A stretch of 64,000 nucleotides of DNA from the NCBI RefSeq assembly GCF_050920415.1, contig NZ_CP169309.1; one strand, written 5' to 3'. The notes under the pieces are model-generated. The model had not been told where the DNA came from. It did no database searches and saw nothing but the letters and a program-made list of their open reading frames with translations. Positions 32,477 through 34,170 of this stretch are shown one piece after another (within the stretch, counting starts at the first letter, position 1; each line of letters opens with the position of its first letter). A program made the translations under genes and the position numbers. This DNA comes from Escherichia coli (GTDB lineage: Bacteria; Pseudomonadota; Gammaproteobacteria; Enterobacterales; Enterobacteriaceae).

Positions 32477-32675
32477 CGTAACAGGCCGGATCGCCAGAAA
32501 GGACCCTAAAATGATAATAATTATCAATTAAATAAAAGTTATCTCAACCGACAAGTTCACCATGAAAGAGGACAAATAATGAGTTCGGTCTCAATGCATT
32601 AATTGATCTGCATCAAATTTAAGTAAAAACATCTTTGGACAATACAGAACACTGCCGTGAATATGGAAAAAGACA

Positions 32676-32888
32676 ATGTCATCGAAGAACAAAACCAGCA
32701 AAACAACAACCCGTAACATCCGTTTTCCCAATCACATGATTGAGCAGATCAATATCGCCCTTGAGCATAAAGGCTCCGGCAACTTTTCGGCATGGGTTAT
32801 TGAAGCCTGTCGCCGGAGGCTGGCAGCAGACATAAAATGTGCCCGTCAGTTAACTGTAACAAAGAATGATACACCGTCTGCTCTGTGA
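32676..32888 (+). CDS. YlcI/YnfO-like DUF3950 protein
   Basis: ...TTRNIRFPNHMIEQINIALEHKGSGNFSAWVIEACRRRL resembles DLP12 YlcI; sits next to cos as in DLP12. Confidence 0.65.
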   Translation: MSSKNKTSKTTTRNIRFPNHMIEQINIALEHKGSGNFSAWVIEACRRRLAADIKCARQLTVTKNDTPSAL

Positions 32889-33034
32889 TAACTGTTCATA
32901 TAACCATTTCTTTATATTGCTGAATTTACAAAAAGTCGCAGTTATTAGTCGTATTTATTCCGAATTGAAATCATCCGTCATATAAAATAAAAAAGAATAA
33001 CAATAATAATCTTCTACCCTTATCAGTACCTTTA

Positions 33035-33063
33035 CTGCTGTGCTCCAACACAGCAGTTTTTTT
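33035..33063 (+). terminator. Intrinsic terminator
   Basis: CTGCTGTG-loop-CACAGCAG followed by a T7 run. Confidence 0.6.
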
Positions 33064-33686
33064 GATTATGCTCACATATTTTTCATCCCCACCGCACTGC
33101 ACATTATAACTGTTGCTTTTCAATTCAGGCTTTGTGCAGGTATGTCTGAATCTCCTCCGGGAGAGGTCTTCATCGTTATCAGCCCCAAAACACACCAGCG
33201 ACACTGACAAAGAGCCTGCGAGTGCAGTTGCCCCGTTTTCATTTTATGATGTATTCACCCAGTCAAATAATGAGCAAATTCAATCCATGTCAGACGGCAG
33301 AGAATCATAAAATTTAACCATCGTGCTTACATAAACAATCCGATAAAGACTTAACATACTTAAAATCGCATATTGCATAAGAATAAATAATAAGTCATCA
33401 AAAAACATCGGGCAAAACTACCGCAACTCCAGTTAAAAAGACAATATATTAATCCAGCGACCTCATTTATTATTCAGAAATGCTTAATAATAAGATATTT
33501 CCTGTTATTCCTTTATGGAGATGGGTAACTGCTCCATGCCAGTCTTGTTGAATGGCTCAAAAAATAAGAGAATAATTCATAACATATATTGTAATTCAGG
33601 CTCGGTTATTTCGAATTGAATACTTGCATTAAAATCTGATAAAAAATTCGTCATAACAACAACATTCTCTTCTGCATGTGCCATAA

Positions 33687-33715
33687 CCTGCCGTAACAAC
33701 CCGGCAGGTTTTTTT
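33687..33715 (+). terminator. Intrinsic terminator in an ORF-poor AT-rich stretch
   Basis: CCTGCCG-loop-CGGCAGG followed by T7. Confidence 0.55.
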
Positions 33716-34170
33716 ATTGAATAAATTTCCGGTTTCTTCCACCATCGCACCGGCCAGGCGACTATGAGGGGACAACGCCGCGCTCCGTTAACGCAGTAAA
33801 CCCCGGTGTGTATCGTTTTTGATTATCCCCGCACACTCGCGCAGAGGAGTCTCCCTGTCGGGCTACGGTCTCTGTTAATACGGGAATACGGCGACAATAC
33901 CGCGCATGGATAATAAGGTCGCTCAACACACTGGCTGTAATGCAGCCGATACCATGCGGCATTTAGCGGCATTCATCGTACACTCAACGGTTAGCTCTTC
34001 ATTCGTGGCATTCACCTGAAAGATCCGGGAGTGTAATTGCGTACATTTACCACTGAACGAACCTTCAACAAGAACACGACCACGCTGCAAAATACGGAAC
34101 AGAATTGTTCCCTGAAAAGGCTTTACGGTTACCAGTAATTTCTTCATGCATTCTCCGGATAACAAAAATA

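What the first reader, a model, noticed from the sequence alone, without database searches (positions are those of the whole stretch)
32480..34170. ORF-poor AT-rich stretch between cos and the spanins with two orphan terminators
This 1.7 kb carries only a YlcI-like small gene plus two well-formed + strand intrinsic terminators (33035-33063, 33687-33715) without obvious upstream genes. It may hold degraded moron genes (bor-like position) or small RNAs.
Basis: seen in the sequence. Interest (0 to 1): 0.3.

Follow-up and report, generated by a model that had tools for sequence, protein, structure and literature searches.

The report
Two HnrS-type prophage small RNA genes
The two "orphan" terminators end two short regulatory RNA genes of the recently described prophage HnrS family: one close copy of HnrS, which in E. 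coli O157 switches off the gene silencer Hha, and one diverged, undescribed sister copy.

Summary
Between cosN (32465-32476) and Rz (34171-34638, - strand) lies a 30-43% G+C stretch. It carries a DUF3950 YlcI gene and two strong + strand intrinsic terminators.

The terminators are not orphans. Each closes a roughly 110-bp gene unit: a conserved TTGAAW -35 box, an A/T-rich -10, and a 63-67-nt RNA. The RNA has an unstructured (ARN)3-4 5' end, a CUUCU core, a hairpin and a U7 tail.

- **Unit A (about 32997-33063)** is 91% identical to HnrS (EcOnc10/11/12) of O157:H7 Sakai. HnrS is a 66-nt Hfq-bound sRNA shown in a 2025 preprint to repress hha. Unit A keeps the 8-nt hha-RBS seed but loses the 15-nt mazF complementarity.
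- **Unit B (about 33653-33715)** is a 68%-identical paralogue with different seed flanks. It occurs in 42 of 5,426 complete E. coli genomes and I found no description of it.

The A-B tandem occurs in eae-negative STEC, whereas hnrS was reported almost only in LEE+ strains. I found no remains of bor, ybcV, ybcW or a TonB_C gene. Expression in this strain and the targets of B are untested.

The parts
32465..32476 (-). cosN cohesive-end sequence (reverse complement of GGGCGGCGACCT). It marks the right end of the phage genome, so the sRNA locus is the last module before cos.
   Evidence: Sequence read. The lambda cos sequence is from my own knowledge. Nu1-type and large terminase ORFs lie just to the left.
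32676..32888 (+). ylcI/ynfO-family gene (70 aa, DUF3950, probably a ribbon-helix-helix protein). It is on the same strand as the sRNA genes and opposite to the late operon.
   Evidence: Pfam DUF3950 E = 3.8e-20. phrog_949 E = 2.6e-32, plus a weak match to the C-terminal part of a HicB-like family. 72% identical to K-12 YlcI. RefSeq annotation.
32958..33068 (+). sRNA gene unit A, an HnrS allele. Putative -35 TTGAAA at 32965-32970 and -10 TAAAAA at 32988-32993. Predicted RNA about 32997/33000-33063 (64-67 nt): 5' AUAACAAUAAUAAU (ARN repeats), seed CUUCUACC at 33011-33018, terminator stem at 33034-33057, U7 to 33063.
   Evidence: nhmmer with the Sakai HnrS unit gives E = 1.3e-16. The RNA is 91% identical to HnrS. 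The fold is only the terminator hairpin, -14.0 kcal/mol, z = -4.5. 8/8 complementarity to the hha RBS region GGUAGAAG. The covariance-model hit of 123 bits follows by construction.
33064..33608 (.). AT-rich spacer between the two units. No gene was recognised. It is present only where the A-B tandem exists.
   Evidence: Found in 23 of 5,426 genomes: 19 at 99% or more and 4 at 77%. The alignment with ST865 shows 1-nt indels and no conserved ORF. No Pfam or PHROG match and no Rfam match.
33609..33719 (+). sRNA gene unit B, a diverged HnrS paralogue. Putative -35 TTGAAT at 33616-33621 and extended -10 TGaTAAAAA at 33637-33645. Predicted RNA about 33652/33653-33715 (63-64 nt): 5' (C)AUAACAACAACA, conserved block UUCUCUUCUGCAUGUGCCAU at 33664-33683, terminator stem at 33685-33710, U7 to 33715.
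   Evidence: nhmmer with the Sakai HnrS unit gives E = 0.0022, end to end, and it is the only other hit in 64 kb. The RNA is 67-68% identical to HnrS and to A. Fold -16.7 kcal/mol, z = -3.7. The 20-nt block is identical in the 86%-identical ST865-type copy. Distribution is 42 of 5,426 genomes.
33716..33905 (.). Highly conserved block of about 53% G+C that follows the HnrS-type terminator in every context examined. Function unknown.
   Evidence: 88.7-100% identity among 21 distinct versions. Substitutions fall evenly over codon positions (10/10/13), with stops and a frameshift in some versions. No unusual RNA fold on either strand, z = +0.7 and +1.9. Partial match to phrog_6954.
33923..34147 (-). 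74-aa late-operon ORF just downstream of Rz, preceded by GGAG. Function unknown.
   Evidence: ORF list. RefSeq hypothetical protein WP_000735650.1. phrog_2571 E = 4e-27. A PilZN match below the Pfam threshold only.
34171..34638 (-). Rz spanin gene, with embedded Rz1 at 34233-34418. This is the right-hand border of the locus.
   Evidence: ORFs. The RefSeq twin annotates a 'lysis protein' here.

Best explanation
The stretch is a lysogen-expressed, non-coding 'moron' module at the far right end of a lambda-like prophage. It reads ylcI, then sRNA gene A, a spacer, then sRNA gene B, all on the strand opposite to the late operon.

Each sRNA gene has its own sigma-70-type promoter (TTGAAW, 17-18 bp, TAAAAA; B also has a TG extension) and ends at a Rho-independent terminator. 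Each should give a 63-67-nt RNA consisting of about 35 unstructured nucleotides, a 9-bp hairpin and a U7 tail. Hfq would bind the U tail on its proximal face and the 5' (ARN)3-4 repeats on its distal face, presenting the CUUCU-containing region for pairing.

Unit A is an allele of HnrS. Its CUUCUACC seed pairs with GGUAGAAG at the hha ribosome-binding site and blocks Hha synthesis. That weakens Hha-enhanced H-NS silencing of horizontally acquired genes.

Unit B uses the same scaffold but has a different, internally conserved seed block (UUCUCUUCUGCAUGUGCCAU). It most likely has a shifted or additional target set.

Shown here: sequence homology, anatomy, synteny, conservation and distribution. 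Shown by others for the Sakai allele: the transcript ends, Hfq binding and hha repression. Inferred: expression in this strain, the transcription start sites, Hfq binding, hha repression by A, and any function of B.
For: Identity of the known RNA
- The Sakai homologue lies between Rz (ECs_5727) and the ylcI-like ECs_1967.
- After calibrating the shift between assembly versions on AgvB, the Hfq-CRAC peak EcOnc11 falls on its 3' half.
- EcOnc10/11/12 were renamed HnrS. HnrS is 66 nt, with its own 5' and 3' ends by dRNA-seq and Term-seq, a Northern blot, hha repression proven by compensatory mutations at the AGAAG RBS, and 15-nt perfect complementarity to the end of mazF (10.1101/2025.11.27.690950).
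- The Sakai sequence I extracted is 66 nt from the inferred start to the end of U7. It has exactly that 15-nt mazF match and an 8-nt hha match.

Homology of the window units
- nhmmer with the Sakai unit finds only A (E = 1.3e-16) and B (E = 2.2e-3) in the 64 kb.
- RNA identities are 91% for A and 68% for B.

Anatomy and conservation
- Across five diverged versions, the invariant columns include TTGAA of the -35 box, the UUCU core and parts of the hairpin and U tract.
- The folds show only the terminator hairpin.
- The hairpin keeps pairing through changes on both sides at 2 of 9 pairs; 87% of cells are paired and 3 of 500 shuffles reach that.
- The B seed block is identical between copies whose flanks are about 77% identical with indels.

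Context
- The unit sits in the same slot next to three different terminase types and occurs with or without ylcI.
- It is multicopy within genomes: median 2 places, up to 4-5.
Against: - There are no expression data for this strain or for any A-type variant or B copy.
- The -10 hexamers are poor (TAAAAA, no T at position 6), and the generic promoter scan does not list these promoters.
- Only five sequence types exist in everything searched. Conservation may therefore partly reflect recent common descent rather than selection.
- Duplex energies with hha are not better than shuffled sRNAs (fraction at least as good 0.12-0.17 for the three A-type RNAs and window B, 0.42 for ST865 B). They also do not stand out in a panel of 29 translation-initiation regions.
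- B pairs with the hha RBS through only 7 bp including a G-U.
- Some B copies have a terminator weakened by one G or by a G-to-U change.
Confidence: 0.78

Rival explanations
1. Unit B is a decaying, non-functional duplicate of HnrS, left by recombination between two HnrS-bearing prophages. Only unit A matters.
For: B is rare: 42 of 5,426 genomes against 567 for the A family. It has lost the perfect hha seed and the mazF match. Some copies carry terminator-weakening changes. No target could be assigned.
Against: The promoter elements, the 5' ARN repeats, a 20-nt internal block and a stable terminator are all retained between two B lineages that are 86% identical, while the neighbouring spacer has drifted to 77% with indels. 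B also spreads on its own, without A or ylcI, in prophages with a different terminase in porcine strains. It reaches up to 4 places per genome.
Confidence: 0.2
2. The hairpins are simply transcription terminators of protein genes. The first ends the ylcI mRNA and the second ends a lost moron gene. No independent small RNAs are made.
For: The first terminator lies 146 nt downstream of the ylcI stop on the same strand, so it probably also ends ylcI transcripts. The generic promoter scan does not report promoters in front of the RNAs.
Against: For the Sakai allele, the preprint's authors report identical 5' and 3' ends at all three copies by dRNA-seq and Term-seq, giving a 66-nt RNA, and abundant Hfq cross-linking. 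The -35 box sits at a fixed distance in all five versions. B occurs with no ylcI upstream. No gene remnant lies upstream of B.
Confidence: 0.07
3. The main role is in cis. The RNAs are antisense to the Q-antiterminated late transcript, which crosses Rz, cos and Nu1 in circular or concatemeric DNA. They would modulate its processing or stability during induction, or the late transcript would act as a sponge for them, rather than the RNAs regulating host mRNAs.
For: Both genes are convergent with the late operon and lie between its last lysis gene and the first packaging gene. The position is kept across phage types. That lambda late transcription crosses cos is my own knowledge.
Against: Trans regulation of hha was demonstrated for the Sakai allele in strains lacking the prophage. 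Nothing in the sequence argues for a cis role beyond the position.
Confidence: 0.1
4. Small proteins are encoded on the - strand across the hairpins, for example the 55-aa 'hypothetical protein' annotated over unit B in strain P13-6 or the 79-aa ORF over unit A.
For: RefSeq annotates such an ORF in three genomes. ORFs of 57 and 79 aa exist in the window.
Against: They have no Pfam or PHROG family. The ORFs are not kept in the ST865 versions (32 and 40 aa with different ends). Most genomes carry no annotation here.
Confidence: 0.03

Closest known systems
HnrS (EcOnc10/11/12), the prophage-encoded Hfq-dependent sRNA of E. coli O157:H7 Sakai (Poudyal et al., bioRxiv 10.1101/2025.11.27.690950; first seen as Hfq-CRAC peaks in Tree et al. 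2014, PMC4104026)
   Same: The slot is the same: between Rz and the terminase genes, downstream of a ylcI-like gene and opposite to the late genes. The -35 box, the 5' AUAACAAUAAUAAU and the CUUCUACC hha seed are also shared. So are the hairpin plus U7 tail, the length of about 66 nt and multicopy carriage on several prophages. Unit A is 91% identical at the RNA level.
   Different: Unit A carries a 3-nt deletion in the promoter region and changes that cut the 15-nt mazF complementarity to 8 nt. Unit B is only 68% identical, with different seed flanks, a different hairpin sequence and an extended -10. The tandem A-spacer-B arrangement and the B paralogue are not mentioned in the preprint. Carriers here include eae-negative STEC, whereas hnrS was reported as 98% EHEC/EPEC and LEE-linked.
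AgvB and AsxR 'anti-sRNAs' of EHEC prophages (Rfam RF02702, RF02703; Tree et al. 2014)
   Same: These are also very short Hfq-binding prophage RNAs with an ARN-rich variable 5' end, a conserved 3' hairpin and a U tail. AgvB starts with GAUAACAACAC, much like B (AUAACAACAACA). B has a 9-nt perfect complement to the GcvB R1 region.
   Different: The Rfam models give no hit in the region at E up to 1, and the promoters are unrelated. AgvB and AsxR sit at the PR' moron site next to STnc100, which in this window is at 37260-37458, about 3.5 kb away. The predicted B-GcvB duplex (-17.3 kcal/mol) is weaker than AgvB-GcvB (-22.0) and is not clearly better than shuffles.
lambda bor / DLP12 borD-ybcV-ybcW: lysogenic-conversion 'morons' between Rz and cos
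   Same: They occupy the same insertion slot, are read on the strand opposite to the late genes, and are presumably expressed in the lysogen. ylcI lies next to the Nu1 homologue, as in DLP12.
   Different: Those are protein genes. No trace of them is present here, and the cargo is non-coding RNA.

Membership tests
HnrS sRNA family | Encoded in the late region of a lambdoid prophage, between the lysis genes and the terminase genes, on the opposite strand | tested here: met
   Units A and B lie between Rz (34171-34638, -) and Nu1 (31742-32287, -), on the + strand. The Sakai copy has the same arrangement.
HnrS sRNA family | Significant sequence homology to the Sakai HnrS gene | tested here: met
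   nhmmer with the single Sakai unit gives A E = 1.3e-16 and B E = 2.2e-3, with no other hit in 128 kb searched. RNA identity is 91% for A and 68% for B. The match for B is weak but runs end to end.
HnrS sRNA family | RNA of about 66 nt ending in a Rho-independent terminator with a long U tail | tested here: met
   9-bp stems followed by T7. The folds show only this hairpin. Pairing is kept through changes on both sides at 2 of 9 pairs. The lengths of 63-67 nt depend on inferred start sites.
HnrS sRNA family | Own promoter and primary 5' end | tested here: inconclusive
   A conserved TTGAAW box followed by 17-18 bp and TAAAAA sits at a fixed distance in five versions, and B has a TG extension. 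The -10 is weak and the consensus scan does not list these sites. Start sites cannot be mapped with these tools.
HnrS sRNA family | Seed complementary to the hha ribosome-binding site (AGAAG) - unit A | tested here: met
   CUUCUACC pairs perfectly with GGUAGAAG at -9 to -2 of K-12 hha, exactly as for the Sakai RNA.
HnrS sRNA family | Seed complementary to the hha ribosome-binding site (AGAAG) - unit B | tested here: inconclusive
   The CUUCU core is kept, but the helix is 7 bp including one G-U, plus a separate 4-bp helix. The energy of -13.5 kcal/mol is not better than shuffles (0.17).
HnrS sRNA family | 15-nt perfect complementarity to the 3' end of mazF (a property of the Sakai allele) | tested here: not met
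   The longest perfect match is 15 nt for Sakai, 8 nt for A and 6 nt for B.
HnrS sRNA family | Hfq binding, stationary-phase accumulation and repression of Hha | not testable with these tools
   Known only for the Sakai allele.
HnrS sRNA family | Carriage restricted to LEE-positive EHEC/EPEC (reported association, not a definition) | tested here: not met
   The window-type locus is 99.5-99.7% identical in CP015229, CP013662, CP015228 and CP013663. Those strains are eae-negative STEC (PMC5009963). B alone occurs in porcine ETEC and O139/O141 strains.
AgvB/AsxR anti-sRNA family (RF02702, RF02703) | Match to the Rfam covariance models; conserved 42-nt 3' region | tested here: not met
   No hit at E up to 1 in 32200-34400. 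The same library finds AgvB at 96.5 bits in Sakai.
AgvB/AsxR anti-sRNA family (RF02702, RF02703) | Location in the convergent sRNA pair at the PR' moron site | tested here: not met
   The PR'-proximal STnc100 is at 37260-37458. The units lie on the far side of the lysis genes.
AgvB/AsxR anti-sRNA family (RF02702, RF02703) | 5' region mimics the target site of a core sRNA (GcvB R1, CACAACA) | tested here: inconclusive
   B has AACAACAACA with a 9-nt perfect complement to R1, at -17.3 kcal/mol against -22.0 for AgvB and -12.6 for HnrS. The fraction of shuffles at least as good is 0.10 for window B and 0.03 for ST865 B.
YlcI/YnfO (DUF3950) | Pfam PF13132 match above the gathering score | tested here: met
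   71.9 bits against a cut-off of 25, E = 3.8e-20, for 32676-32885.
Bor-type protein morons | A recognisable protein gene or pseudogene (bor, ybcV, ybcW, TonB_C-like) in the slot | tested here: not met
   tblastn gave no hit below E = 0.25 for these proteins in 32300-34200.

The most novel reading that the evidence does not exclude
HnrS is not a single LEE-linked regulator. It would be one member of a small, diversifying family built on a fixed scaffold of promoter, 5' ARN Hfq handle, hairpin and U tail. Unit B would be a re-targeted member whose conserved 20-nt block (UUCUCUUCUGCAUGUGCCAU) and CA-rich 5' end give it a different host target set, possibly including titration of GcvB in the manner of AgvB. 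It would spread in LEE-negative STEC and porcine ETEC or edema-disease strains, either alone or in tandem with an HnrS allele that has dropped the mazF interaction.
Probability: 0.4. Interest if true: 0.55.

Novelty: new member of a known kind. Interest (0 to 1): 0.4.

Why it matters
- **Annotation.** These 63-67-nt genes are invisible to genome annotation. RefSeq lists nothing, or a spurious ORF, at these sites, and Rfam 15 has no model for them. A "gene-poor" phage end is in fact regulatory cargo.
- **Role outside LEE.** If unit A works like Sakai HnrS, LEE-negative Shiga-toxin producers also carry a phage-borne switch that lowers Hha. The role of the family would then not be tied to the type III secretion island.
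- **How phage sRNAs evolve.** Unit B offers a natural experiment: the same scaffold with a new seed.
- **Practical use.** The alignment and model built here could seed an Rfam family. Copy-number surveys based on the Sakai sequence alone may undercount the family.

Tried and rejected
- **Rfam.** The whole window at gathering thresholds and the region at E up to 1 gave nothing in 32480-34170. The only weak hit, mir-578 at E = 0.21, is the lambda-type hairpin between Nu1 and cos.
- **AgvB/AsxR identity.** My first guess, from the CA-rich 5' end, was rejected: no model hit, a different locus and an unrelated promoter.
- **Pas sRNAs of EPEC.** These are 80-240 nt and sit at other positions. PasD relates to STnc100, not to these units.
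- **Degraded morons.** tblastn with BorD, YbcV, YbcW, the TonB_C-like protein and others was negative.
- **Wider relatives.** A terminator-based pattern found only the same five sequence types in IMG/VR. In 100,044 species-representative genomes it gave 108 hits, all chance and none enterobacterial. A B-specific promoter-plus-terminator pattern in JGI metagenomes gave 25 chance hits. K-12 DLP12 and two other ylcI-bearing prophages have no copy.
- **Targets of B.** Duplex energies against hha, tomB, cnu, hns, stpA and 24 control start regions gave no outlier. A 12-nt match inside the window at 49987-49998 is at chance level (about 0.18 expected) and is not at a gene start.
- **The 190-bp block.** It is not a stable RNA fold and does not evolve like a coding sequence.
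Full report
**Setting.** The window holds a lambda-like prophage whose late genes run on the - strand.
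- The large terminase is at 29842-31767 and the Nu1-type small terminase at 31742-32287.
- Rz is at 34171-34638 with embedded Rz1, and the lysozyme is at 35117-35650 (RefSeq twin).
- The cohesive-end sequence AGGTCGCCGCCC lies at 32465-32476. The lambda cos sequence is from my own knowledge.
- The finding therefore covers the last module of the phage genome, between Rz and cos. This is the slot where lambda carries bor and where DLP12 carries borD-ybcV-ybcW-ylcI.

**The observation.** It is correct.
- G+C falls to 30-43% between 32250 and 33750, against 52-57% on both sides.
- The two best terminator-like sites in 31-36 kb are on the + strand. Their stems are at 33034-33057 and 33685-33710; each has 9 pairs and is followed by seven T.
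- Hairpins of this quality are expected 0.01 times per shuffled 64-kb window.
- The ORF at 32676-32888 is a DUF3950 YlcI/YnfO protein (E = 3.8e-20).
One is a 74-aa - strand ORF at 33923-34147. The other is that 33716-33905 is a conserved block of normal G+C content.

**What the terminators belong to.** The roughly 170 nt ahead of each terminator are paralogous (72% identity). Both contain TTYCGAATTGAAW, an A/T-rich stretch, a CA/AU-rich run, UCUUCU, then the hairpin.
- Searching 5,426 complete E. coli genomes, unit A has homologues at 83-86% identity in 549 further genomes, including O157:H7, always just downstream of a ylcI-like gene.
- Unit B occurs in only 42 genomes.
- In O157:H7 Sakai the homologue lies in prophage Sp10 between the Rz gene ECs_5727 and the ylcI-like ECs_1967.
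- Tree et al. 2014 listed three very abundant orphan Hfq-crosslinking peaks, EcOnc10, 11 and 12, in Sp12, Sp10 and Sp9, each about 5 kb from the AgvB-type sRNA of the same prophage.
- I calibrated the coordinate shift between assembly versions on AgvB, using the Rfam hit. EcOnc11 then falls exactly on the 3' half of this unit.

**The known RNA.** A 2025 preprint from the same group renames EcOnc10/11/12 as HnrS.
- HnrS is 66 nt. dRNA-seq and Term-seq show identical 5' and 3' ends at all three copies, with an intrinsic terminator.
- It is Hfq-associated and accumulates in early stationary phase.
- It represses hha tenfold by pairing at the AGAAG ribosome-binding site, proven with compensatory mutations.
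- It has perfect complementarity to the last 15 nt of mazF.
- The Sakai sequence I extracted is 66 nt from the inferred start to the end of U7. It contains exactly a 15-nt perfect complement to the end of K-12 mazF and an 8-nt complement (GGUAGAAG) at the hha RBS. The identification is therefore secure.

**Unit A.** With the Sakai gene unit as a single nhmmer query, the 64-kb window gives two hits and no others: A at E = 1.3e-16 and B at E = 2.2e-3.
- The predicted A RNA (about 32997/33000-33063) is 91% identical to HnrS.
- The 5' AUAACAAUAAUAAU run (four ARN triplets) and the CUUCUACC seed are unchanged, so the hha duplex is identical.
- Changes at CCCUUAUCAGUACCUUU cut the mazF match from 15 to 8 contiguous nucleotides.
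- A 3-nt deletion lies between the -10 region and the start.

**Unit B.** The predicted RNA (about 33653-33715) is 67-68% identical to A and to HnrS.
- It keeps the -35 box and gains a TG-extended -10.
- It starts with AUAACAACAACA (three ARN triplets) and keeps the CUUCU core. The flanks and the hairpin sequence differ.
- A second B lineage (strain ST865 and relatives) is 86% identical overall. It is identical across the 20-nt block UUCUCUUCUGCAUGUGCCAU, while loop, 5' end and neighbouring spacer differ.
- All versions fold as about 35 unpaired nucleotides plus the terminator hairpin.
- Across 13 distinct sequences the hairpin stays paired in 87% of cells, with changes on both sides at 2 of 9 pairs. 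This alignment was fitted to the model, so the support is modest.

**Mechanism.** The anatomy is that of a minimal Hfq-dependent trans-acting sRNA: a U7 tail and hairpin for the proximal face, 5' ARN repeats for the distal face (as Tree et al. argued for AgvB), and a seed in between.
- For A, the best-supported function is the published one. It would occlude the hha RBS, lower Hha, and relieve Hha-enhanced H-NS silencing of horizontally acquired genes. This step is inferred from seed identity, not shown here.
- For B, I commit to [quoted passage not shown], at roughly 0.6-0.7.
- Its hha pairing is weaker, 7 bp including a G-U.
- Its CA-rich 5' end has a 9-nt perfect complement to the GcvB R1 region and an intermediate duplex energy: -17.3 kcal/mol, against -22.0 for AgvB and -12.6 for HnrS.
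- Neither pairing is statistically distinguishable from shuffled controls or from a panel of 29 start regions.

**Distribution and context.**
- The full A-spacer-B arrangement is in 23 of 5,426 genomes: 19 of the window type and 4 of the ST865 type.
- B alone, without ylcI and next to a different terminase, is in porcine ETEC and O139/O141 strains.
- The unit sits in the same slot next to lambda-type, 933W-type (with HNH) and a third type of terminase.
- Copies are multiple per genome.
- Four carriers of the window-type locus (CP015229, CP013662, CP015228, CP013663) are published eae-negative STEC of serotypes O36:H14, O136:H16 and O168:H8 (PMC5009963). The preprint found hnrS 98% in EHEC/EPEC and "almost exclusively" in LEE+ strains.
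- Outside E. coli prophages I found nothing. IMG/VR holds only the same five sequence types. The scans of species-representative genomes and of metagenomes returned only chance matches.
- The preprint mentions no sequence variants, paralogues or tandem copies.

**What is not there.**
- No Rfam family matches in the region.
- The units are not AgvB/AsxR and not Pas sRNAs.
- No remnant of bor, ybcV, ybcW or a TonB_C-like gene is present.
- The 545-bp spacer has no conserved ORF.

**Left unexplained.** The block 33716-33905 follows the HnrS-type terminator in every context and is 88.7-100% identical among 21 versions.
- It is not a stable RNA fold.
- It shows no third-position bias and carries stops or frameshifts in some versions.
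- Yet it overlaps an ORF family, phrog_6954, which is 82 aa in ST865 and starts inside Rz.
- It may be a mosaic-junction sequence.

**Verdict.** The locus is a member of a known kind, the HnrS family.
- Three modestly new points emerge: an allele that has lost the mazF match, an undescribed paralogue in tandem, and carriage in LEE-negative strains.
- Interest is moderate, because the biology of the family was published in preprint form in 2025 and everything about expression and targets here is inferred.

Noticed in passing
window 33716-33905: A block of about 53% G+C follows the HnrS-type terminator in all contexts and is 88.7-100% identical among 21 versions. It has no stable RNA fold, no codon-position bias, and stops or frameshifts in some versions. 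It overlaps ORF family phrog_6954, which is 82 aa in ST865 and starts inside Rz. Its function is unknown; it may be a recombination junction.
   Followed up: partly
window 33923-34147 (-): A 74-aa ORF with a GGAG Shine-Dalgarno sequence lies directly after Rz. RefSeq calls it a hypothetical protein. It matches positions 100-172 of the 291-position phrog_2571, and has only a sub-threshold PilZN similarity. It is absent from Sakai Sp10 and from ST865.
   Followed up: partly
window 37260-37458 (-): STnc100 sRNA (148.7 bits), just downstream of the Q/PR' region. The 2026 Pas preprint relates this family to PasD. No AgvB or AsxR gene lies next to it here, unlike in Sakai Sp10.
   Followed up: no
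window 47174-47261 and 47286-47362 (-): A C4 antisense RNA (83.6 bits) and isrK (67 bits) sit side by side. This suggests a P1/P7-type c4-ant immunity or anti-repressor module inside this lambdoid prophage.
   Followed up: no
window 38293-38366 and 38471-38542 (-); 59618-59937 (+); 3938-4114 and 59396-59478 (-): Two phage-borne tRNA genes lie downstream of Q. Three tRNA hits with identical scores, together with naRNA4/REP-type repeats near both ends of the window, probably mark chromosomal flanks of the prophage.
   Followed up: no
L017 303-371 (IMG/VR UViG_2718217885_000014): This HnrS A-type copy keeps its RNA part from AAUAAUCUUCU onwards, but unrelated sequence replaces everything upstream, including the promoter. 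The recombination breakpoint lies inside the gene.
   Followed up: no
L004 1735-1775 (strain ST865 ylcI): The 3' end of the ylcI homologue is replaced by five tandem copies of ACTGACA, which shortens the protein to 53 aa.
   Followed up: no
L008 621-682 (-) compared with window 33653-33690: AgvB begins GAUAACAACACAACAAUAUCAGUA. HnrS and unit A begin AUAACAAUAAUAAU and contain AUCAGUA, and unit B begins AUAACAACAACA. The shared 5' motif may reflect a common Hfq distal-face handle or distant common ancestry. The promoters and 3' parts are unrelated.
   Followed up: partly
window 17079-17117 (+): The only other hairpin in the window that passes the strict terminator test has a 14-bp stem, a 4-nt loop and a T run of at least 7. 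It lies on the + strand, inside the region of - strand structural genes.
   Followed up: no
window 32309-32371: A long, nearly perfect inverted repeat (AGAAAGGAAACGACAG ... CUGUCGUUUCCUUUCU) lies between the Nu1 start and cosN. It was picked up as a spurious mir-578 match. From memory, it corresponds to the hairpin in the same place in phage lambda.
   Followed up: no
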